DNA of 64,000 nucleotides from Escherichia coli (GTDB lineage: Bacteria; Pseudomonadota; Gammaproteobacteria; Enterobacterales; Enterobacteriaceae): the NCBI RefSeq assembly GCF_030013595.1, contig NZ_CP122768.1. One strand, given 5' to 3'. Under the pieces are notes generated by a model that saw only the letters and a list, made by a program, of their open reading frames with translations, did no database searches and was not told the origin of the DNA. Each line of letters begins with the position of its first letter. The first letter of the stretch is position 1. Below, in pieces: positions 271-37,584 of the stretch. Position numbers and translations under genes: made by a program.

Positions 271-439
271 TGTTCATTCCACGGCCAAAAACAGAGAAAG
301 GAAACGACAAAGGCCCAAAAGTTCGTTTTCAGCACCTGTCGTTTCCTTTCTTTTCAGGGGGTATTTTAAATAGAAACATTAAGTTACGACGAAGAAGAAC
401 GGAAACGCCTTAAACCGGAAAATTTTCATAAATAGCGAA

Positions 440-470
440 AACCCGCGAGGTCGCCGCCCCGTGGCAGGCC
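440..470 (-). other. Lambdoid cos site (cosN cohesive-end sequence)
   Basis: Reverse complement of about 448-459 is GGGCGGCGACCT, the lambda left cohesive end, followed (in phage orientation) by lambda-like leader sequence running into nu1. Confidence 0.7.
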
Positions 471-863
471 ACCCCACCGGAAGGACCCGCACAAATGAGA
501 GTGATTATCACCATTGCTGATGAATAAATTGATGAAAATCATTAAAACGCCTTTCAGCAAGATAACGGCGACGGTCGTTGTTGCACTCCGTAACTCTGCG
601 ACTAAGGTTAAAAGCATGGCCCTCTTTTGCCACCGGCAAATCTTCAATGGATTTCCCCTGCCGGTTTTTTATTTTCGTCGATGCATAACATTGCATTTAC
701 ATCAATAGCGGCTATTGTCATTAGTATGTTGCATAAATGCATGGGTGGTATTGGCGGTCTTCGCCGGCCGGTTCTGTGTAGCTGGACCGTTTTTTTATTT
801 CTCACATTACAGCAGCCCCTTAGAGTGAAGGGCTGCTGTAATGCCGCAATCTTTTTTAACATG

Positions 864-883
864 AAAAAGGCCGCAGAGCGGCC
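864..883. repeat. attL core of the P2-like prophage (direct repeat copy 1)
   Basis: Exact 20-bp match to 36907-36926; contains the hairpin GGCCGC-aga-GCGGCC. Confidence 0.6.
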
Positions 884-19839: not shown

Positions 19840-20417
19840 GCGCAGAACTCATGCGACTGCTGAGCAATATCATCCGCACCGGGATCATCTCTGAAGTTGA
19901 TGAGAAGTCCTGGCGCGTGCGCGTTCGCAGCGGCGAACTGGAAACAGGCTGGTTGCGCTGGAACACCACGCGCGCGGGAGCCTTCAATGTATGGCTGCCG
20001 CCATCACCAGGCGAACAGGTGGTAATTGCCTGCATTGGCGGCAACCCGGAAACCGCCATGATAATTGGCAGCCTGTGGAGTGATGCCAGTCCGGCCCCCG
20101 GCAAAAGCCTGAAAGAAATCGTGGTCAGCGCGCCGGATGGCGCGGCGTTCCGCTACGACGCAGACGCTGGCGCACTGAGCGCCAGCGGCATGAAAACAGC
20201 CACCCTGCAGGCATCCGTCAGCGTGACACTGGATACGCCCGTCGTGGAATGCACAAACCTTCTGAGAACAGCGACGCTTGACGTCACAAAAGGGGGAAAG
20301 ATGAGCGGCAATATCACGCACAGCGGCGGCGATTTCACCTCAAACGGCATCACAGTGCATACGCATAAGCACGGTGGCGTTAAAGGTGGCAGCGATTCGA
20401 CAGGAGGCCCGCAGTGA
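19836..20417 (+). CDS. V: Baseplate spike/assembly protein (P2 gpV)
   Basis: 193 aa with the conserved GG/HTH..HGG C-terminus of gpV-type spikes. Confidence 0.85.
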   Translation: MSAELMRLLSNIIRTGIISEVDEKSWRVRVRSGELETGWLRWNTTRAGAFNVWLPPSPGEQVVIACIGGNPETAMIIGSLWSDASPAPGKSLKEIVVSAPDGAAFRYDADAGALSASGMKTATLQASVSVTLDTPVVECTNLLRTATLDVTKGGKMSGNITHSGGDFTSNGITVHTHKHGGVKGGSDSTGGPQ

Positions 20418-30971: not shown

Positions 30972-31128
30972 AGCTTCAGCCCCTTGTATCCGTTAAATGA
31001 TTCGGCAACAATCATCACCCACCACGCGCGTAATCTCACCCCTGCGCCGTTCTCCCGACCCAGCGACAACAAAAAGCAGTAACCCCCTCCGCACGCACAT
31101 GCGACCATGCCGCACAGGGAGGGAACAG

Positions 31129-32232
31129 ATGACCGACACCACCATGCAATTGCTCAGTCAGGGCACAGACCCCGTGAAAATGCCGGATTTTGATATTCTT
31201 GCGGAGGGTAAAACGCTGTCAGGCGTGGCAGAGCGCCTGATGAGCCTGTCACTGACCGACAACCGGGGATTTGAGGCGGACCAGCTCACCATCACGCTGG
31301 ATGATGCGGATGGTCAGTTGCAGCTACCGCCACGGGGCGCGCGCCTGACGGTTCTCATTGGCTGGAAAGGAGAACCGCTGACAGAAAAAGGCACTTACAT
31401 TGTTGATGAAATCGCTCACGAAGGACCGCCGGACAGGCTGACAGTTTCAGCCAGAAGCGCAGATTTTCGGGATGAATTTAACGTTAAACGTGAGGTGTCC
31501 TGGCATGATGTGACCGTTGAGCGTGTGGTATCCGCCATCGCTCATCGGTATGGTCTGAAATCGCAAATCAGCGAAATGCTGATGGATATTGAAATCGACC
31601 ACGCCGACCAGACCGAAGAAAGCGACATGTCCTTCCTTACGCGCATGGCGGAAATGCTGGGCGCAATCACTACGGTAAAAAGCGGTAATCTGTTATTCAT
31701 TATGCCAGGCGGTGGCGTGAACGCGCAGGGCCAGCCGTTGCCCTCGTTCGCCATCACACGCAGCAGCGGCGATCGCCATCAGTTCCGCATTGCTGACCGA
31801 GAGGCGTATACGGGGGTACGCGCTTACTGGCTTGATCTTAATTACGGGAAAAAGAAAAAAGTCAGCGTGAAACGCCGTAAACCGCCAAAACCCAAAAAGG
31901 AGAAAAGCAGCAGCCGTGAAGGTGATTATATGGAAGGCGCGGAAGGCAATGTGTTTGTGTTACGCAAGACTTATCAGAACGAGCAGGCAGCAAGACGCGC
32001 AGCGGCGGCAAAGTGGCAGCAGCTACAACGCGGAGCCGCAGCGTTCTCCATCACATTGGCACGTGGACGCGCAGAACTCTACCCCGAAATGCATGGCACG
32101 GTAACAGGCTTTAAAAGCGAGATTGATAATCAGGACTGGATTATTGCGAAAGCCGAGCACACCATTGATAACAGCGGCTTTACCACGCAGCTTGAGCTTG
32201 AGGCAAAAATCCCGGAATGGATAGCAGAATGA
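31129..32232 (+). CDS. D: Tail protein D (P2 gpD, late control gene D family)
   Basis: Start at MTDTTMQLL with AGGGAGGG ribosome-binding site; size and position as P2 D. Confidence 0.8.
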   Translation: MTDTTMQLLSQGTDPVKMPDFDILAEGKTLSGVAERLMSLSLTDNRGFEADQLTITLDDADGQLQLPPRGARLTVLIGWKGEPLTEKGTYIVDEIAHEGPPDRLTVSARSADFRDEFNVKREVSWHDVTVERVVSAIAHRYGLKSQISEMLMDIEIDHADQTEESDMSFLTRMAEMLGAITTVKSGNLLFIMPGGGVNAQGQPLPSFAITRSSGDRHQFRIADREAYTGVRAYWLDLNYGKKKKVSVKRRKPPKPKKEKSSSREGDYMEGAEGNVFVLRKTYQNEQAARRAAAAKWQQLQRGAAAFSITLARGRAELYPEMHGTVTGFKSEIDNQDWIIAKAEHTIDNSGFTTQLELEAKIPEWIAE

Positions 32233-32396: not shown

Positions 32397-33032
32397 TTAG
32401 CGAGCTAATATATTCAAAGAATTTAACAATTGAGTGTCGAGTGTTTCAGTTGCAGGAATCGGTAATCCATTCGCAATGCGGTAATTTTTCACAGACAGCC
32501 TTGTGGATGGCCCCATTATGCCGTCAATATTTCCGTTATAAAATCCCCTGTCCAGCAATGCGAACTGAACTCGCATAATCAATCGCTTACGTTTCTCTGC
32601 ATCAGAAGCAAGCCCATTACTCGTACGGTTAACCTCTGAAGTTCCAACAGAACTCGTGTTAGTGGTTCTATTATTATCGTTAGAACGAAGTGCACGCACC
32701 GAGGAAGAGGACGATGAGGAACTTGCACCTGAACTTGAAGAACCAGATGAACTTGGTGAGCTGTATGTTTTTGGATAATAGGGGGTACTTCCACCATAGT
32801 ATCCACCACCTGATGAGGATCTATGAGAGCTATGGCTCCTATGAGAACTATGGCTTCGATGCCCTGCGATATAAAATGGGACTTCCGTGTTAAGTGGAGC
32901 TATCACTAAATCATGCTCATTAAGAGTCATACCAGGTAAATCACTCGCTCCTGTAGATGAATCGCTTGCCCATACAGAATTGTTGAGAGCCAAAAATCCC
33001 GGAAGTAGAGCAGCAAAATTAAACTTTTTCAT
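32397..33032 (-). CDS. hxsA: His-Xaa-Ser repeat protein HxsA: secreted precursor with Gly/Ser/Tyr-rich linker and C-terminal peptidoglycan-binding domain
   Basis: Signal peptide MKKFNFAALLPGFLALNNSVWA; HRSHSSHRSHSSHRS repeats; C-terminus LLDRGFYNGNIDGIMGPSTRLSVKNYRIANGLP resembles PG_binding_1; ATGA overlap with hxsC. Confidence 0.8.
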   Translation of the reverse strand: MKKFNFAALLPGFLALNNSVWASDSSTGASDLPGMTLNEHDLVIAPLNTEVPFYIAGHRSHSSHRSHSSHRSSSGGGYYGGSTPYYPKTYSSPSSSGSSSSGASSSSSSSSVRALRSNDNNRTTNTSSVGTSEVNRTSNGLASDAEKRKRLIMRVQFALLDRGFYNGNIDGIMGPSTRLSVKNYRIANGLPIPATETLDTQLLNSLNILAR

Positions 33033-34141
33033 AAAATTGGTCTCGGTGATTGATGAAAACGGCCTTTTGAGGAACTGAAATAGCCAGCACAGGAAGGCTT
33101 CTGAGTACATTCATCACATTCTTTTGGATAGTAATTTTTCCAATCAGAGATCGACTGAACAGCAAGCTCCCTAGCCCTTTCAGGAAGATAACACAAAGGA
33201 TAATTAAAAATTGTCAGAGGTATGCCTGACCTGTATGCAGCGTCTATGGCAGAGATTATTTTCTCACTATAACTACTGTGATCAATGAAGATGGTGGACC
33301 AGTTTTTTCGTGCCCAACCGATAGGCTCCAACCCCATAAGGGAAATCTGATTGATGTTGGAGAACACACGGCCAGCGAATTCTACGATATCATCCAATTC
33401 GGTATAGTTAGCCAGTGTAGGAATAACTCTAAGTTCGATATTAATCCCCAAGTTTCCTGCATTGATTAACCCTTTAACCGTTTCATTAAATGCGCCATCA
33501 CTCCCTACCAGATGATCATGCACAAGTGGTCTTGATGAGTAGAGCGGGATACCAAAGGTGATTTTGATCTTTTTGCTTCGCTTTGCCATTTCCTGTGTAA
33601 AGTTGGTATCAGCAAATTTGCGTCCGTTTGTTAAAACATGTAAAGCAGTATCTGGTGAATTCTCGATGATAAAATCAATGAAGTGAAGGAAGTCATCCCC
33701 ATATAGCAAAGGTTCACCACCGCTGACCCCAACAACTCCGTTCAAGCCAAATGAAGCTATAGCAAGAGCTGATTGGGTAAGTAGCCAGTCATCATTTATT
33801 TTCTTTGGTGGCTGCGAACAAAACAGACACAAGTTATTGCAGCGTTCCGTAACTAAGACAGTATTATGATTGGCTTTGCGTGACAGAATAACGCGTATCA
33901 TATTGCCATTGTTGATTATCCCAATATCTCCATCTTCAATTGACTCAAATAATTCAGTGCTAATAACAGAGAAATCAAAGCATGGTGGAATGGCATCATT
34001 ATTGCCTTCAGCAACTACTAGCAAATTGGGCAAAAAGAATAAAGGGTTCACTGGTTTTTGTTTGCATAACCGATAGAACCCCGTGGGCACGTTCTCTGTA
34101 GAAGCAAAATGAAAGATATCGTTCCTGATAACCTCAGACAT
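33029..34141 (-). CDS. hxsC: Radical SAM maturase (HxsC-type assignment; B/C assignment tentative)
   Basis: CNNLCLFC (Cx3Cx2C) radical-SAM cluster motif; C-terminal CDEC...C cluster; overlaps both neighbours. Confidence 0.8.
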   Translation of the reverse strand: MSEVIRNDIFHFASTENVPTGFYRLCKQKPVNPLFFLPNLLVVAEGNNDAIPPCFDFSVISTELFESIEDGDIGIINNGNMIRVILSRKANHNTVLVTERCNNLCLFCSQPPKKINDDWLLTQSALAIASFGLNGVVGVSGGEPLLYGDDFLHFIDFIIENSPDTALHVLTNGRKFADTNFTQEMAKRSKKIKITFGIPLYSSRPLVHDHLVGSDGAFNETVKGLINAGNLGINIELRVIPTLANYTELDDIVEFAGRVFSNINQISLMGLEPIGWARKNWSTIFIDHSSYSEKIISAIDAAYRSGIPLTIFNYPLCYLPERARELAVQSISDWKNYYPKECDECTQKPSCAGYFSSSKGRFHQSPRPIL

Positions 34142-35522
34142 ATGCCCATCCTTTTAGCATCTCAGCCTTCGAACCACCCTCTGAGATGCAGTTCATCAGA
34201 TACCTGAACATCCCCTTGTGATATTGACAAAACGTTGAACGACTCCTATCACCGACAGGCTCACCCTGTACACTTATGTTCTGGCATGGATCTGAACCAC
34301 AAAATGGTTGATATGCACATGTATCACAACCTGGCAGAGCAAAATTGAACGATGAACTCAATACTGCGTTATAGTAAGGACTATCAGAAAATGATAGCGT
34401 CTTAACTTCACCCGCACTGAACTCCGTTTCAGGATTCACCTTCTGCAACATACGGCTCTCATCGCTACCATATACTCGACCGTCATAATTGAAAAGAATA
34501 CTGTTAAGCACGACTCCACTTGGAGACTTTAAATCCGCATAACCACTAAAACCGGGATTGAAGATCCTTTTCAGATGAATGGAGGCCGAATGTTCCACAA
34601 CCCTTATCCCTTCATTATTAATCTTAAGGATTTCATCTATCAACGAGGCATAGAAGCTGAAGTATTCGTCCATAGAAAAGGTGAAAGAAGCTTTTTGTGC
34701 AAACCCATAGGGACTAACAGGTCGGATAAACATGTCCTTGAGACCAAGAGACAAGTGAGCCTGAACAATCGATTCAGGACGTCTGATAAGCTCTTTAGTA
34801 ACTGTAGTAACCGTTGCAACGCGGCCAGCACCTAAAGAGTGTTTGATAGCCTCTACCCCTGACACTGTTCTACTGTACGCAAGCCCACGACCAAGAATTC
34901 GATTACTGTTGTGAACAACTTCCTCACCATCAAGCGACACAGAGAACGTTATGTTCCGGTCTCTCGACCATTCAATCATATCCTCATTCAAGACAGACAG
35001 ACTTGATGCCACCACCATCTCAAAATTGGTTCTTCCCAGCGTTTCAGCACATTGATCATAGATGCTCTGAATTAAATCAAACCGCAAGAGAGGCTCCCCA
35101 CCCTGTATCTCTATTTTGTAAGGTGGCGTTGATAGTTTTTTAATAGCCGAAATAATATCGGGGATGAGCTCAGGATTTAGGTCGTAACCTGAGGCATTAA
35201 CAGAAGCTCTACTAACCTGGCAATACTTGCATGTATGGTCACAACGTAATGTGGGTACAATCATGAAAATTGGCCTGACAGCCAGTTCATTCATCAATCG
35301 TTTTGCAAAAGCAGAACTTAAAGCATAGGGAGTTATAGCAGATGAGCTTTCACTGGTTATGAAAAGCTTACTTTCTAGCACGTTTGATTGCTCCGAACTA
35401 ATTCGCTCATCAGAAAGATCAATAAGGTCTTGCTCACCAATGAAATGATGAAAACCTGCAAGGTTGCTTATAAACACCTGTCCATTAGGCAATCTGTCAA
35501 AATTAAATGGCATCAATTCCAT
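34134..35522 (-). CDS. hxsB: Radical SAM/SPASM maturase (HxsB-type assignment; B/C assignment tentative)
   Basis: CDHTCKYC (Cx3Cx2C) motif plus C-terminal Cys-rich SPASM-like region (CDTCAYQPFCGSDPC...C). Confidence 0.8.
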   Translation of the reverse strand: MELMPFNFDRLPNGQVFISNLAGFHHFIGEQDLIDLSDERISSEQSNVLESKLFITSESSSAITPYALSSAFAKRLMNELAVRPIFMIVPTLRCDHTCKYCQVSRASVNASGYDLNPELIPDIISAIKKLSTPPYKIEIQGGEPLLRFDLIQSIYDQCAETLGRTNFEMVVASSLSVLNEDMIEWSRDRNITFSVSLDGEEVVHNSNRILGRGLAYSRTVSGVEAIKHSLGAGRVATVTTVTKELIRRPESIVQAHLSLGLKDMFIRPVSPYGFAQKASFTFSMDEYFSFYASLIDEILKINNEGIRVVEHSASIHLKRIFNPGFSGYADLKSPSGVVLNSILFNYDGRVYGSDESRMLQKVNPETEFSAGEVKTLSFSDSPYYNAVLSSSFNFALPGCDTCAYQPFCGSDPCQNISVQGEPVGDRSRSTFCQYHKGMFRYLMNCISEGGSKAEMLKGWAYV

Positions 35523-35836
35523 TATGAAAGCCTCTCATCAACACTGCGAAGCACTTTATGGACAATAGAGTCTCTCAACGCCCCTGTTTTATGCTGTAGC
35601 TTTTCTCGCAAAGAGTAATCATTAAGCAGCCTATCGAATTCATAAAGGAATTTGGGATTATCGTTTTCAAAAGAGATTATCCAGTGGGAAACGTCTTCAT
35701 GGAGTTTCCATCGAGTAAGCGGAGTCATCCAATATAGACTATTGCGTATAACCCATTCAGAATATAGTTCTTTCTCAAACACTCTTTCGCTCATTGCAAT
35801 TATCTTCCAATACAAATATTCATGATCAGCAACCAC
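35522..35836 (-). CDS. hxsD: HxsD, small LLNDYxLRE-motif protein of the His-Xaa-Ser system
   Basis: Contains FDRLLNDYSLREKL; GTG start at 35836 (alternative ATG at 35794); stop overlaps hxsB start by 1 nt. Confidence 0.7.
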   Translation of the reverse strand: MVADHEYLYWKIIAMSERVFEKELYSEWVIRNSLYWMTPLTRWKLHEDVSHWIISFENDNPKFLYEFDRLLNDYSLREKLQHKTGALRDSIVHKVLRSVDERLS

Positions 35837-36046: not shown

Positions 36047-36307
36047 ATGTTCCGTTGTCCGCTTTGTGGCGCATCCGCCCGAATCCGCACCAGTCGTCCG
36101 GAAAATGATTCAAACACCGTGCGGCAAAAGTATTACCAATGTAACAACCTAGAATGCGGCGTATGCTTCTCAACACTGGAAGCTTTCCATAAATTCACAT
36201 CAAAACACGCCTCCGGCGCTCACTCTTCAGAAGGTATCCCGTGGCATGAACTGCCAGCTTCACACAAAGGAAACAATCAGATGAGTTTGCCCTTACCTCA
36301 AAATTAA
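36047..36307 (+). CDS. ogr: Late transcription activator Ogr (C4 zinc finger)
   Basis: MFRCPLCGASARIRTSR...YYQCNNLEC parallels P2 Ogr (MFHCPLCQHAAHARTSR...YHQCQNVNC). Confidence 0.9.
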   Translation: MFRCPLCGASARIRTSRPENDSNTVRQKYYQCNNLECGVCFSTLEAFHKFTSKHASGAHSSEGIPWHELPASHKGNNQMSLPLPQN

Positions 36308-36367
36308 CAGGCAGAATTGCCGGAGTAACAAAAAAGAGATAGATTACGCGCGGGTGCCTTTCGGCTG

Positions 36368-36631
36368 ATGGTCGGAGGGAATACCCGAAGGCCAGATGTG
36401 GAAAGGCCCCGGAAAACATTTCTGTTTAACCGAGGCCCTAACCGCATTACCTTGACAAGTGAAAGGTTAGCGCCTCTCCGGAAAAGGAGCAAGTGCTATG
36501 TCGCAAAAATCGCTTACGGCCATCATGTTCTGCGTGACGGCAATCCTCATCATCTGGATGTTGCACGGTTCGCTGTGCGAAATACGGATGAGATTCTGGG
36601 GAGCGGAGTTTGCGGCGTTCTTACAGTGTAA
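36368..36631 (+). CDS. Mok-like overlapping reading frame (translation-coupling ORF for the hok-like toxin)
   Basis: 87-aa ORF in another frame spanning the hok-like gene, as in hok/mok loci; may not yield a stable protein. Confidence 0.35.
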   Translation: MVGGNTRRPDVERPRKTFLFNRGPNRITLTSERLAPLRKRSKCYVAKIAYGHHVLRDGNPHHLDVARFAVRNTDEILGSGVCGVLTV

Positions 36632-36638
36632 GCAGTAA
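36498..36638 (+). CDS. hok: Hok/Gef-family type I toxin (46 aa)
   Basis: AAAAGGAG ribosome-binding site; MSQKSLTAIMFCVTAILIIWMLHGSLCEIRMRFWGAEFAAFLQCKQ has the Hok pattern (TM helix then SLCEIR...AAF). Confidence 0.7.
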   Translation: MSQKSLTAIMFCVTAILIIWMLHGSLCEIRMRFWGAEFAAFLQCKQ

Positions 36639-36725
36639 GGAAACCGCGACGGGGGAGCAATCCCCCGTCAATCGGTTGCCAGGGTAAGGTCGATAAGGCA
36701 CCCTATCTCACAGACATGAACAACA

Positions 36726-36760
36726 AACCCGCAACGTAAAAACTGCGGGTTTTCTTTTTG
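36726..36760 (+). terminator. Rho-independent terminator downstream of the hok-like gene
   Basis: Hairpin ACCCGCA...TGCGGGT followed by TTTTCTTTTT. Confidence 0.6.
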
Positions 36761-36906
36761 GTGTCCTTACTGACTTGAAACGGTGATCAGACTATAAGAC
36801 AAAGCCCACAATGTAGCGGGCTTACTCCCCTCTCCCTCCACTGAATGTGGACACATGGTGGAACGAAGATATATAAAACATTATAAATCAATCGGTTACT
36901 GAAAGA

Positions 36907-36926
36907 AAAAAGGCCGCAGAGCGGCC
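36907..36926. repeat. attR core of the P2-like prophage (direct repeat copy 2); also the terminator hairpin of the downstream lambdoid gene
   Basis: Exact 20-bp match to 864-883; on the minus strand it forms hairpin plus T-run just after the stop of ORF 36949-37164. Confidence 0.6.
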
Positions 36927-36948
36927 TTTATGGTTTATTGACAATTGA

Positions 36949-37164
36949 TTAAGACGTGTGGCACTTATTGGCACACCAATAGCAACCATTCACCCGGGAA
37001 TATCCTTTGGCCTTTGCCTCTGTTACCGCCGAAGAACAATCACTATAGTAACCAAGGTAATCGCGGTTAGCTACAGCAGGAAGATATGAACATTCCTCAG
37101 CATGCACCTCATGATCGCCATTGCTCTGAGCATTTTTGTTCACGTAATAGTGTTTAAAAACCAT
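36949..37164 (-). CDS. Hypothetical small Cys-rich protein (lambdoid late region)
   Basis: 71-aa ORF ending at a hairpin terminator. Confidence 0.4.
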   Translation of the reverse strand: MVFKHYYVNKNAQSNGDHEVHAEECSYLPAVANRDYLGYYSDCSSAVTEAKAKGYSRVNGCYWCANKCHTS

Positions 37165-37584
37165 TGTATAACTCCATGTTGACGCTGATATTCAGCATTA
37201 ACATGCTATATCACCAATTACACAAACATAAGCTTGTTATTTCAATTAGTTGATAACGATCACCACTGAACTTTGGCCTTGCGAAATTCAAATGTTTTTC
37301 TGACTATTATTGGGCCGATAAACAGATATTATTTGAGCGTTTTGGTTCATTACATAAGCAATATCTCCATCTTTCAGAATGACTTTCCCATCCTTTCCCG
37401 ATACGGCAATACTCCGCTGCTCAGGATGATAGCCAATGCTACGCCCGCAATGGATCTCTTCCCCACCATTTTGAGACATGACTTTTACAGTTAACATTTT
37501 TCTGCTCCTATTTAGATGCCCTTTCCATCCGGGCCACTGTTCAAAGTAAATTTAGATTCAACAATATTCTGCTCTTACAGGCGA

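What the first reader, a model, noticed from the sequence alone, without database searches (positions are those of the whole stretch)
36368..36760. Hok/Mok-like type I toxin locus between ogr and attR
Seen in sequence: a 46-aa ORF with a strong Shine-Dalgarno encodes a single transmembrane helix followed by SLCEIR...AAF, the Hok/Gef signature as I remember it. An 87-aa overlapping frame (mok-like) spans it and a strong terminator follows. Established knowledge: hok/sok-type loci act in post-segregational killing and phage exclusion. Inference: an antisense Sok-like RNA should be encoded opposite the leader; this toxin may stabilise the prophage.
Basis: partly seen in the sequence, partly recalled or inferred. 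Interest (0 to 1): 0.5.

Follow-up and report, generated by a model that had tools for sequence, protein, structure and literature searches.

The report
Known Hok/Sok toxin cassette in prophage

Summary
A 46-aa ORF (36498-36638, AAGGAG 8 nt upstream) is a Hok/Gef peptide (Pfam PF01848 E=4e-8; PHROG 251 E=7e-23). It lies between ogr (36047-36307) and the prophage attR core (36907-36926) and is followed by a terminator (36725-36759).

The surrounding RNA anatomy is hok-like:
- a conserved promoter (36317-36345);
- a leader matching Rfam's sok model in sense orientation (49.4 bits, E=3e-9, below the gathering score of 59);
- a 15-bp closure between the 5' end and 36687-36703 (tac/fbi);
- a sequestered SD;
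- a Sok-type antisense gene (promoter 36492->36464, transcript about 36457->36397).

Thirteen diverged homologues keep the fold, with 17 compensatory pairs.

The locus is not new. The same DNA is in 1638 of 5426 complete E. coli genomes, where PGAP calls it "Hok/Gef family protein", and in phage P88. A peptide 44/46 identical (72_1621) was among the homologues tested in a recent Hok catalogue and is not on its list of non-toxic ones.

The 87-aa "mok-like" frame is not conserved: 23 of 80 loci encoding one identical Hok peptide keep it, and no conserved leader start codon exists. Prophage stabilisation is plausible but untested. Interest is low.

The parts
36317..36345 (+). hok mRNA promoter: -35 TTGCCG (36317-22), 17-bp spacer, -10 TAGATT (36340-45); +1 about G36352
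   Evidence: It is the best plus-strand sigma-70-like site in a lenient scan, 8/12. Both hexamers are kept while the spacer diverges in 11 homologues from different mobile elements. It falls below the 9/12 threshold of the tool scan.
36352..36759 (+). predicted full-length hok mRNA (about 408 nt)
   Evidence: The 5' end equals position 1 of the Rfam RF01794 match. The MFE is -174.9 kcal/mol, z=-7.8. The consensus fold of 13 homologues has 88 pairs, 95% of cells paired versus 41-43% in slid controls, and 17 pairs with compensatory change.
36352..36366 (+). tac-like 5' element (GGGUGCCUUUCGGCU) that pairs with the 3' fbi-like element
   Evidence: The MFE pairs nt 1-15 with 36687-36703. The core 7 bp are kept in 12 of 13 homologues. 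In a 3'-truncated RNA it refolds locally with 36370-36386.
36397..36457 (-). predicted Sok antisense RNA (about 57-61 nt): 10-nt single-stranded 5' tail, long hairpin, short U tail
   Evidence: It folds at -26 kcal/mol, z=-4.3. It lies opposite the part of the leader that aligns to the Sok-complementary part of the Rfam sok model. The ends are inferred, not mapped.
36464..36492 (-). Sok promoter: -35 TTGCTC (36492->36487), 17 bp, -10 TAACCT (36469->36464)
   Evidence: It is the only promoter-like site on the minus strand of 36290-36720 in a lenient scan. It occupies the same position relative to the hok SD as in the R1 locus (sequence). The GGTTAG motif is the one mutated in the sokW promoter-less construct of Takada 2021 (primers YO-421 and YO-597). 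It is weak by consensus (6/12).
36469..36497 (+). hairpin that sequesters the hok Shine-Dalgarno (AAGGAG 36484-36489) against CCUCU(CC)
   Evidence: Helices 7 and 8 of the consensus structure are 96-98% paired in 13 homologues. This is among the most conserved stretches of the locus, 0.92 pairwise identity.
36498..36638 (+). hok CDS, 46 aa, Hok/Gef family (cluster 72 of the Escalera-Maurer catalogue)
   Evidence: Pfam PF01848 E=4.2e-8. PHROG 251 E=7.4e-23. NCBIfam HokA 36 bits, below its cut-off of 89. It is 44/46 identical to 72_1621.
36609..36618 (+). downstream box (UUUGCGGCGU, within codons EFAAF) that pairs with the hok start region AUGUCGCAAA (36498-36507)
   Evidence: Helix 9 has 10 bp and is 98.5% paired. 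36608-36631 is 0.93-0.94 identical across homologues, including synonymous sites.
36642..36677 (+). conserved hairpin just after the hok stop codon
   Evidence: Helices 15 and 16 have 4 pairs with compensatory changes and are 99% paired.
36687..36703 (+). fbi-like 3' element (GGUCGAUAAGGCACCC) complementary to the mRNA 5' end
   Evidence: The 3' arm differs between homologues (GGUCGAUAAGG versus GGCUGAAGUGG) yet still pairs with the same 5' arm (by eye).
36725..36759 (+). intrinsic terminator of the hok mRNA (9-bp stem, 10-nt loop, UUUUCUUUUU)
   Evidence: It is kept with one compensatory pair (AAACCC/GGGTTT versus AAGCCC/GGGCTT) in the ICE-borne copies. Phage P88 and the chromosome diverge right after it.
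36368..36631 (+). 87-aa overlapping ORF ('mok-like'); judged a chance ORF and not part of the system
   Evidence: It is not conserved and has no family match. Its ATG lies 17 nt from the mRNA 5' end, inside the tac stem, with no SD.
36047..36307 (+). ogr/Delta-like zinc-finger late activator of the P2-family prophage (context)
   Evidence: NCBIfam PRK09678 E=3.5e-11. PHROG 603. PGAP names the homologue 'ogr/Delta-like'.
36907..36926 (.). attR core AAAAAGGCCGCAGAGCGGCC (the attL copy is at 864-883)
   Evidence: It is the only direct repeat of 14 nt or more linking this region to the rest of the window. The two flanks are contiguous in the lambdoid prophage of strain N18-04097.

Best explanation
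The locus is an intact hok/sok-type type I toxin-antitoxin cassette, about 445 bp (36317-36759), carried as cargo at the right end of a P88-like (Peduoviridae, P2-family) prophage. The proposed mechanism follows, with shown and inferred steps marked. (1) Shown by sequence and comparison: a dedicated promoter makes a roughly 408-nt mRNA that folds very tightly. Its 5' end is closed onto a 3' element (tac/fbi). The hok SD sits in a local hairpin, and the start codon pairs with a box inside the coding region, so the full-length RNA should be translationally inert. (2) Inferred from the R1 paradigm: slow 3' trimming removes the fbi element and lets the 5' end refold, giving an RNA that can be translated and can bind the antisense. 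(3) Sequence shown, expression inferred: a short antisense RNA (Sok) starts about 40 nt upstream of the hok ATG and runs back across the leader. While the cassette is present and transcribed, Sok pairs with the leader and the duplex is destroyed. (4) Inferred: when the Sok supply stops, through loss of the prophage or shut-off of host transcription, the stable hok mRNA pool is translated. The 46-aa single-helix peptide then inserts into the inner membrane and kills or arrests the cell. Unlike R1, this cluster has no conserved mok leader ORF, so the step that couples Sok binding to hok translation is unknown here. Among the biological roles, addiction to the prophage or cassette is the likeliest, but none has been tested.
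For: - Hok family membership.
- All seven residues conserved in over 80% of Hok peptides (M1, C16, T18, L30, C31, E32, E41) are present (alignment).
- The leader matches Rfam sok in the same sense orientation as the R1 locus.
- The tac/fbi closure and overall fold have z=-7.8.
- The fold is conserved with covariation in 13 homologues at 74-100% identity: 17 compensatory pairs, against 2-7 in slid controls.
- Promoters sit at the homologous places, and the sokW -10 motif is shared.
- The Sok hairpin has z=-4.3.
- The cassette recurs as a unit next to ogr, next to lom or J in lambdoid and Stx phages, in an ICE-like island and on IncI1 plasmids.
- It is in 1638 of 5426 E. coli genomes and has 295 relatives in IMG/VR.
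- The near-identical peptide 72_1621 and its cluster mate 72_1589 were cloned for arabinose-induced drop assays. The text names only 19_179, 60_1482 and 69_1540 as non-toxic.
Against: - No expression data exist for this locus.
- The Sok promoter is weak by consensus (6/12), and the tool scan found no promoter at its default threshold.
- The Rfam score of 49.4 is below the gathering score of 59, and nothing in the window reaches gathering.
- The Sok U-tail has only three U.
- No conserved mok exists, so the canonical coupling step cannot be assumed.
- The predicted fold of the 3'-truncated RNA does not open the SD hairpin.
- The toxicity of cluster 72 is read from the paper's text and tables; the figure itself was not seen.
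Confidence: 0.85

Rival explanations
1. This is a canonical three-gene hok/mok/sok locus. The 87-aa frame (36368-36631) is Mok, its translation is needed for hok translation, and Sok acts by blocking it.
For: The frame is open in the window and spans the hok SD and start. In R1, translation of mok up to the hok SD is mandatory (PMC9841398).
Against: The ATG at 36368 becomes ACG in 3 of 11 homologues. The frame stops at +80 in 8 of 11, or is opened only from -13 to -43 with no start codon. Among 80 loci encoding one identical Hok peptide, 23 keep the 87-aa frame, 39 stop at +80 and 23 have no ATG/GTG/TTG. The ATG has no SD and sits in the tac stem. Where R1 and hokW have the mok ATG, 7-9 nt after GAGGC, this cluster has GCA, TAT, ATC and so on.
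Confidence: 0.05
2. A short, non-conserved or non-canonical leader ORF replaces mok. In this window the candidates are TTG 36452, whose frame reads through the hok SD, and the mini-ORF GTG-AAA-GGU-UAG (36459-36470), which ends in the 5' arm of the SD hairpin. Sok's 5' tail covers its initiation region, so coupling is kept in a reduced form.
For: In R1, only translation up to the hok SD is needed. The GTG-NNN-GGT-TAG arrangement is present in 11 of 13 diverged homologues (sequences). The TTG occurs in the 'TTGACAAG' variants, which account for 54 of 80 IMG/VR loci. Predicted Sok ends right next to these codons.
Against: Neither codon has an SD. The TTG is absent from many variants. The GTG and TAG overlap the Sok -10 and start region, so their conservation may have that cause. 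The Stx-phage copy has GTA instead of GTG.
Confidence: 0.25
3. The cassette's role is not prophage addiction. It may help lysis and phage release on induction, as shown for hokW-sokW of the Stx2 prophage Sp5, or it may exclude superinfecting lytic phages by abortive infection, as reported for R1 hok/sok against T4.
For: With hokW-sokW, mitomycin C removes sokW RNA, HokW appears in a RecA-dependent way, and phage yield halves without the locus. R1 hok/sok lowers T4 plating (PMC8621323). hok genes are about fourfold enriched in prophages.
Against: hokW belongs to a different Hok cluster (HokD-like, 51 aa, 14/51 identical). hok is not enriched next to defence systems (section heading). Nothing has been tested for this cluster or for P2-family phages.
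Confidence: 0.35
4. The locus is an inactive relic, like several chromosomal hok loci of E. coli K-12 that were disabled by insertions or rearrangements.
For: Many chromosomal hok loci are decayed (my own knowledge of Pedersen and Gerdes 1999; not checked here). One relative (L011) has a stop at codon 2 and a deletion, and L005 has a broken tac helix.
Against: In this window the promoter, tac/fbi, SD, ORF and terminator are all intact. The DNA is 99.8% identical to widespread copies. The Hok peptide is strictly conserved while neighbouring DNA varies. The catalogue's text does not list the two tested cluster-72 peptides among its non-toxic constructs.
Confidence: 0.05

Closest known systems
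Hok 'cluster 72' of Escalera-Maurer et al. (bioRxiv 10.1101/2025.08.07.668861), representative 72_1621; RefSeq 'Hok/Gef family protein' WP_001416438.1 and relatives; phage P88 gp52
   Same: Same 46-aa peptide family: 44/46 identical to 72_1621 and 45/46 to the STEC384 copy. The DNA is 99.8% identical over 461 bp. It sits in the same place after ogr in P88-like prophages.
   Different: The peptide differs by two substitutions (M10 for T, R32 for S). The public records annotate only the CDS. The Sok gene, promoters and tac/fbi elements described here are not annotated in the records I opened.
hok/mok/sok of plasmid R1 (parB), the paradigm
   Same: Shared features are the SLCEIR and AAF motifs (38% identity over 34 aa), a long folded mRNA with 5'-3' closure, a Sok promoter whose -35 overlaps the hok SD region, a GAGGC box in the leader, a hairpin after the stop codon, and fbi followed by a terminator.
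   Different: The peptide is 46 versus 52 aa and has a QCKQ tail instead of AYESGK. The leader scores 49 bits against the Rfam model, versus 87 for R1. There is no conserved mok start codon or frame. The carrier is a prophage, not a plasmid.
hokW-sokW of Stx2 prophage Sp5 (Takada et al. 2021, PMC8621323)
   Same: Both are prophage-borne hok/sok systems. They share the GGTTAGC motif that supplies the Sok -10, whose mutation abolishes antitoxin activity in sokW.
   Different: HokW is a 51-aa HokD-type peptide (catalogue id 35_712) with a canonical mokW ATG. It is a separate locus from the cluster-72 copy that Stx phages carry downstream of lom. The PHROG label 'MokW-like host killing' on this family is a family name, not an orthology statement.
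hokA of E. coli K-12 (NCBIfam NF007290)
   Same: It is the best NCBIfam hit, E=3.9e-9, and shares an MxQK start.
   Different: The score of 36 bits is far below the equivalog cut-off of 89, so this is not HokA.
tisB/istR-1 and zorO/orzO (type I systems in which the antisense binds far upstream of the toxin SD)
   Same: The resemblance is only in layout. Predicted Sok pairs 40-100 nt upstream of the hok ATG, with no conserved leader ORF in between.
   Different: There is no sequence relation. A standby-site mechanism here is pure conjecture. This comparison rests on my own knowledge and was not tested.

Membership tests
Hok/Gef toxin family (Pfam PF01848) | Significant match to the family profile | tested here: met
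   PF01848 i-E=4.2e-8, residues 7-44 on model positions 5-42 of 42. PHROG 251 E=7.4e-23.
Hok/Gef toxin family | Residues conserved in over 80% of 1264 Hok peptides (M1, C16, T18, L30, C31, E32, E41 of the logo) | tested here: met
   M1, C12, T14, L26, C27, E28 and E37 align to them. Logo position 48 is C here, as in 34% of Hoks.
Hok/Gef toxin family | Small peptide with one N-terminal hydrophobic helix | tested here: met
   The peptide is 46 aa, and residues 7-24 (TAIMFCVTAILIIWMLHG) are hydrophobic. This was read from the sequence; no topology predictor was run.
Hok/Gef toxin family | Toxic when expressed | not testable with these tools
   From the literature only. 72_1621 (44/46 identical) and 72_1589 were among 45 homologues tested, and the three non-toxic ones named are others.
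hok/sok type I TA locus (R1 paradigm) | Long mRNA closed by 5'-3' (tac/fbi) pairing | tested here: met
   The closure is 15 bp in the MFE, z=-7.8. The 7-bp core is kept in 12 of 13 homologues. It is nearly invariant, so it shows conservation rather than covariation.
hok/sok type I TA locus (R1 paradigm) | cis-encoded antisense Sok RNA opposite the leader, with its own promoter | tested here: inconclusive
   A homologous promoter position and motif and a stable hairpin are present. The promoter matches consensus at only 6/12, and transcription cannot be tested here.
hok/sok type I TA locus (R1 paradigm) | [quoted passage not shown] | tested here: not met
   There is no conserved start codon or frame. 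The R1-type control locus has an ATG 9 nt after GAGGC.
Rfam RF01794 (sok) | Score at or above the gathering threshold (59 bits) | tested here: not met
   49.4 bits, E=2.8e-9, over the full model 1-157. There was no hit at gathering. R1-type control: 87.2 bits.
NCBIfam HokA equivalog NF007290 / Hok subfamily NF007279 | Score at or above the curated cut-off (89 / 73 bits) | tested here: not met
   36.4 and 25.6 bits.
hokW-sokW (Sp5) | Orthology to the 51-aa HokW (MKQQKAM...DYESEK) | tested here: not met
   14/51 identical in a global alignment. It belongs to a different catalogue cluster, 35 versus 72.

The most novel reading that the evidence does not exclude
The 46-aa 'cluster 72' hok loci, this one included, may work without any mok leader ORF. 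Sok would then control Hok by a route other than blocking mok translation, such as RNase III-driven decay alone, a standby-site block, or a structural switch. The stretch recognised by Sok's 5' tail (36443-36453) may also be under diversifying selection, so that the several copies found in one genome do not cross-protect.
Probability: 0.3. Interest if true: 0.4.

Novelty: already known. Interest (0 to 1): 0.15.

Why it matters
It matters little for discovery. The gene is already annotated in RefSeq, present in about 30% of complete E. coli genomes, and part of a published Hok catalogue that tested a near-identical peptide for toxicity.

The practical value is in annotation:
- Rfam at its gathering threshold and PGAP both miss the RNA parts of this cluster (Sok, tac/fbi). 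The coordinates given here could be transferred to thousands of copies.
- The missing mok and the hypervariable Sok-target stretch are modest, testable leads on how regulation has diverged within the hok family.

If the cassette does act as an addiction module, it would help explain why P88-like prophages persist, and it would need to be considered when curing or engineering such lysogens.

Tried and rejected
- The built-in promoter scan found no promoter in 36200-36900. I replaced it with a lenient scan of my own, whose hits are weak by consensus and rest mainly on homology.
- Rfam at gathering threshold gave nothing in the whole window.
- I first took the Stx-phage matches (81% identity) to be hokW. 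The primers in Takada 2021 showed that hokW is a different, HokD-like locus, so that equation was dropped.
- The IMG/VR search returned 80 nearly identical loci, many cut at the hok stop codon. They were useless for 3' structure but useful for the mok-frame test.
These were Salmonella diarizonae, a Citrobacter, one chance hit and two contaminated MAG contigs. The cluster is therefore narrow, and few extra sequences were gained.
- Folding the 3'-truncated mRNA did not reveal an opened SD, so no activation model could be derived from thermodynamics.
- A conserved ATG at 36396 was considered as a leader start. It was rejected because its frame and stop vary with indels.
- No other hok gene is in the window (tblastn with seven Hok queries).
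- I did not use structure prediction, the large protein searches or covariance-model building, because the identity was already settled.

Full report
**What is there.** The window is E. coli DNA. At 36498-36638 (+) lies a 46-aa ORF, MSQKSLTAIMFCVTAILIIWMLHGSLCEIRMRFWGAEFAAFLQCKQ, preceded by AAGGAG at 36484-36489. It matches Pfam HOK_GEF (E=4.2e-8) and PHROG 251 (E=7.4e-23). It also matches the NCBIfam HokA and Hok models, but far below their curated cut-offs (36 versus 89 bits and 26 versus 73 bits). It shares SLCEIR and AAF with R1 Hok. All seven positions that a recent survey found conserved in over 80% of Hok peptides are present. An 87-aa ORF (36368-36631) overlaps it. A hairpin plus U-tract at 36725-36759 follows.

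**Context.**
- The cassette sits at the right end of a P2-family prophage with integrase (1811-2938), portal, terminase, sheath, gene D and ogr at 36047-36307.
- The prophage is bounded by a 20-bp direct repeat, AAAAAGGCCGCAGAGCGGCC, at 864-883 and 36907-36926.
- The DNA outside the two repeats is contiguous in a lambdoid prophage of strain N18-04097. Here the P2-like phage has therefore integrated inside another prophage.
- In strain STEC384 the same phage type sits at the ihfA terminator.
- 'Between ogr and attR' is right.
- Phage P88 (Xuanwuvirus, Peduoviridae) carries the same cassette in the same place (93% identity). P88 diverges from the window immediately after the terminator.

**It is already known.**
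- The 461-bp region occurs at 80% or more coverage in 1638 of 5426 complete E. coli genomes, up to 9 places per genome. PGAP annotates it as 'Hok/Gef family protein'.
- Copies of the same 46-aa family lie after ogr in other P2-like prophages (once as a tandem pair), downstream of lom or J in lambdoid and Stx phages, in an ICE-like island, and on IncI1 plasmids.
- IMG/VR holds 295 relatives.
- One scan of a representative genome per species found the peptide's C-terminal motif outside Escherichia only in Salmonella diarizonae and a Citrobacter.
- The Hok catalogue of Escalera-Maurer et al. lists this family as cluster 72, a 'high abundance' cluster. It cloned 72_1621 (44/46 identical to this peptide) and 72_1589 (the Stx-phage type) for arabinose-induced toxicity assays.
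- That paper reports 42 of 45 homologues as toxic, and the three exceptions belong to other clusters. It also reports about fourfold enrichment of hok in prophages.

**RNA anatomy.**
- *Rfam match.* Rfam's sok model (RF01794) matches 36352-36511 on the plus strand over its full length (49.4 bits, E=2.8e-9, gathering score 59).
- *Orientation of the model.* The same model hits a bona fide R1-type locus on the hok-sense strand, ending at the hok ATG (87 bits). The model therefore describes the hok leader, and the match fixes the mRNA 5' end near 36352.
- *hok promoter.* Upstream lies TTGCCG-17-TAGATT (36317-36345). Both hexamers are kept in 11 homologues while the spacer diverges.
- *Fold.* The predicted 411-nt transcript folds at -174.9 kcal/mol (z=-7.8). 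Its first 15 nt pair to 36687-36703, the hallmark tac/fbi closure of hok mRNAs (mechanism summarised in PMC9841398).
- *Conservation of the fold.* A consensus fold of 13 homologues (74-100% identical) has 88 pairs. 95% of cells are paired versus 41-43% when partners are slid, and 17 pairs show compensatory changes versus 2-7 in the controls.
- *Translation signals.* The SD is held in a conserved hairpin (36469-36497). The start codon region pairs with UUUGCGGCGU inside the coding region (36609-36618), which is nearly invariant even at synonymous sites.

**Sok.**
- *Promoter.* On the minus strand, the only promoter-like site in 36290-36720 is TTGCTC-17-TAACCT (36492->36464). It lies exactly where the Sok promoter lies in R1, with the -35 overlapping the hok SD region.
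- *Shared motif.* Its -10 is the reverse complement of the GGTTAG motif. In hokW/sokW, that motif was mutated to make a promoter-less, toxic construct.
- *Transcript.* An RNA starting near 36457 would have a 10-nt free 5' tail, a long hairpin (-26 kcal/mol, z=-4.3) and a short U tail ending near 36397.
- *Limits.* This is homology and inference. The promoter is weak by consensus, and no expression data are available.

**Mok.** The 87-aa frame is not a conserved gene.
- *ATG.* Its ATG is ACG in three of 11 homologues.
- *Stop at +80.* Eight of 11 have a stop at +80. This stop arises whenever the Cys codon is TGT rather than TGC.
- *Indels.* Indels in the leader break the frame in others.
- *Test on identical Hok peptides.* Among 80 IMG/VR loci that all encode one identical Hok peptide, only 23 keep the frame. 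39 stop at +80, and 23 have no ATG, GTG or TTG in it upstream of hok.
- *Missing start.* The GAGGC box that serves as the mok SD in R1 and hokW is kept (36432-36436). No start codon follows at a conserved place, whereas R1-type and hokW loci have ATG 7-9 nt downstream.
- *Possible substitutes.* Two features could replace mok, but neither has an SD or is universal. One is a TTG at 36452, present in the commonest variant. The other is a three-codon GTG mini-ORF (36459-36470), present in 11 of 13 homologues.
- *What the catalogue says.* Its authors also note that Mok cannot be reliably identified in homologues.
- *Consequence.* How Sok binding is coupled to hok translation in this cluster is therefore open.

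**Interpretation.**
- I conclude, with about 0.85 confidence, that this is a functional hok/sok-type type I toxin-antitoxin cassette working essentially as in R1. That means an inert, stable, folded mRNA, slow 3' activation, an unstable antisense that triggers decay, and a membrane-active peptide once the antisense is lost. It lacks a conserved mok.
- The biological role is untested. Addiction to the prophage is plausible. So are help with lysis on induction, as shown for hokW-sokW in Sp5, and exclusion of lytic phages.
- This is an ordinary, already catalogued element, and interest is low.
- Two small leads remain: the missing mok, and the hypervariable Sok-target stretch. 36443-36453 has 0.43 pairwise identity against 0.92 for its flanks, and it shows eight variants among loci with one identical Hok peptide.

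Noticed in passing
window 864-883 and 36907-36926; prophage 884-36906: The P88-like P2-family prophage is integrated inside a lambdoid prophage. Window 426-883 and 36907-37300 are contiguous in the lambdoid prophage of E. coli N18-04097, between its small terminase gene and its lysis genes. The 20-bp att core AAAAAGGCCGCAGAGCGGCC is a terminator-like hairpin. It also occurs at the ihfA terminator, where the same phage type sits in STEC384.
   Followed up: partly
window 32397-35836 (-): A four-gene His-Xaa-Ser system, hxsD-hxsB-hxsC-hxsA (two radical-SAM maturases plus a repeat peptide), is inserted as cargo between tail gene D (30997-32232) and ogr. P88 itself has nothing there. The names come from PGAP annotation of 99%-identical DNA. 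Its function is unknown, and the position resembles the variable cargo sites of P2-like phages.
   Followed up: no
window 36443-36453 (and alignment A3 columns 97-108): The stretch complementary to the predicted single-stranded 5' tail of Sok is the least conserved part of the whole cassette (0.43 mean pairwise identity). It is flanked by the most conserved parts (0.92-0.93). Eight sequence variants occur among 80 loci that encode one identical Hok peptide. This could reflect diversification of Sok specificity or frequent recombination.
   Followed up: partly
L013 938-1078 and 1662-1802 (E. coli STEC639): Another P2-like prophage carries two cluster-72 hok cassettes in tandem after ogr. The two copies differ in their Sok-target stretch.
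   Followed up: no
window 20123-20212 (-): ARAGORN calls a 90-nt tRNA-Leu(CAG) inside the baseplate-gene region of the prophage. Rfam finds no tRNA there at gathering threshold, and long ORFs cover the site. It is probably a false positive.
   Followed up: partly
L014 520-603 (R1-type hok/sok on pMTY1886_IncFII): In this R1-like locus, a 1-nt deletion relative to my recollection of the R1 leader sequence (not checked against a record) puts the mok ATG in frame with hok. The leader would then be translated as an N-terminal extension of Hok rather than as a separate Mok frame. PGAP annotates a shortened 33-aa Hok there.
   Followed up: no
L001 4608-5836 (E. coli STEC384): An IS2 element sits between ogr and the hok promoter in an otherwise 99.8%-identical copy of the region. 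The IS2 transposase CDS overlaps the 3' end of the annotated ogr CDS.
   Followed up: no
window 36761-36906: The 146 bp between the hok terminator and the attR core are shared with E. coli chromosomal copies but not with phage P88, which has unrelated sequence there. The stretch contains a further hairpin (36802-36823). It is presumably the attP arm of a different integration module.
   Followed up: no
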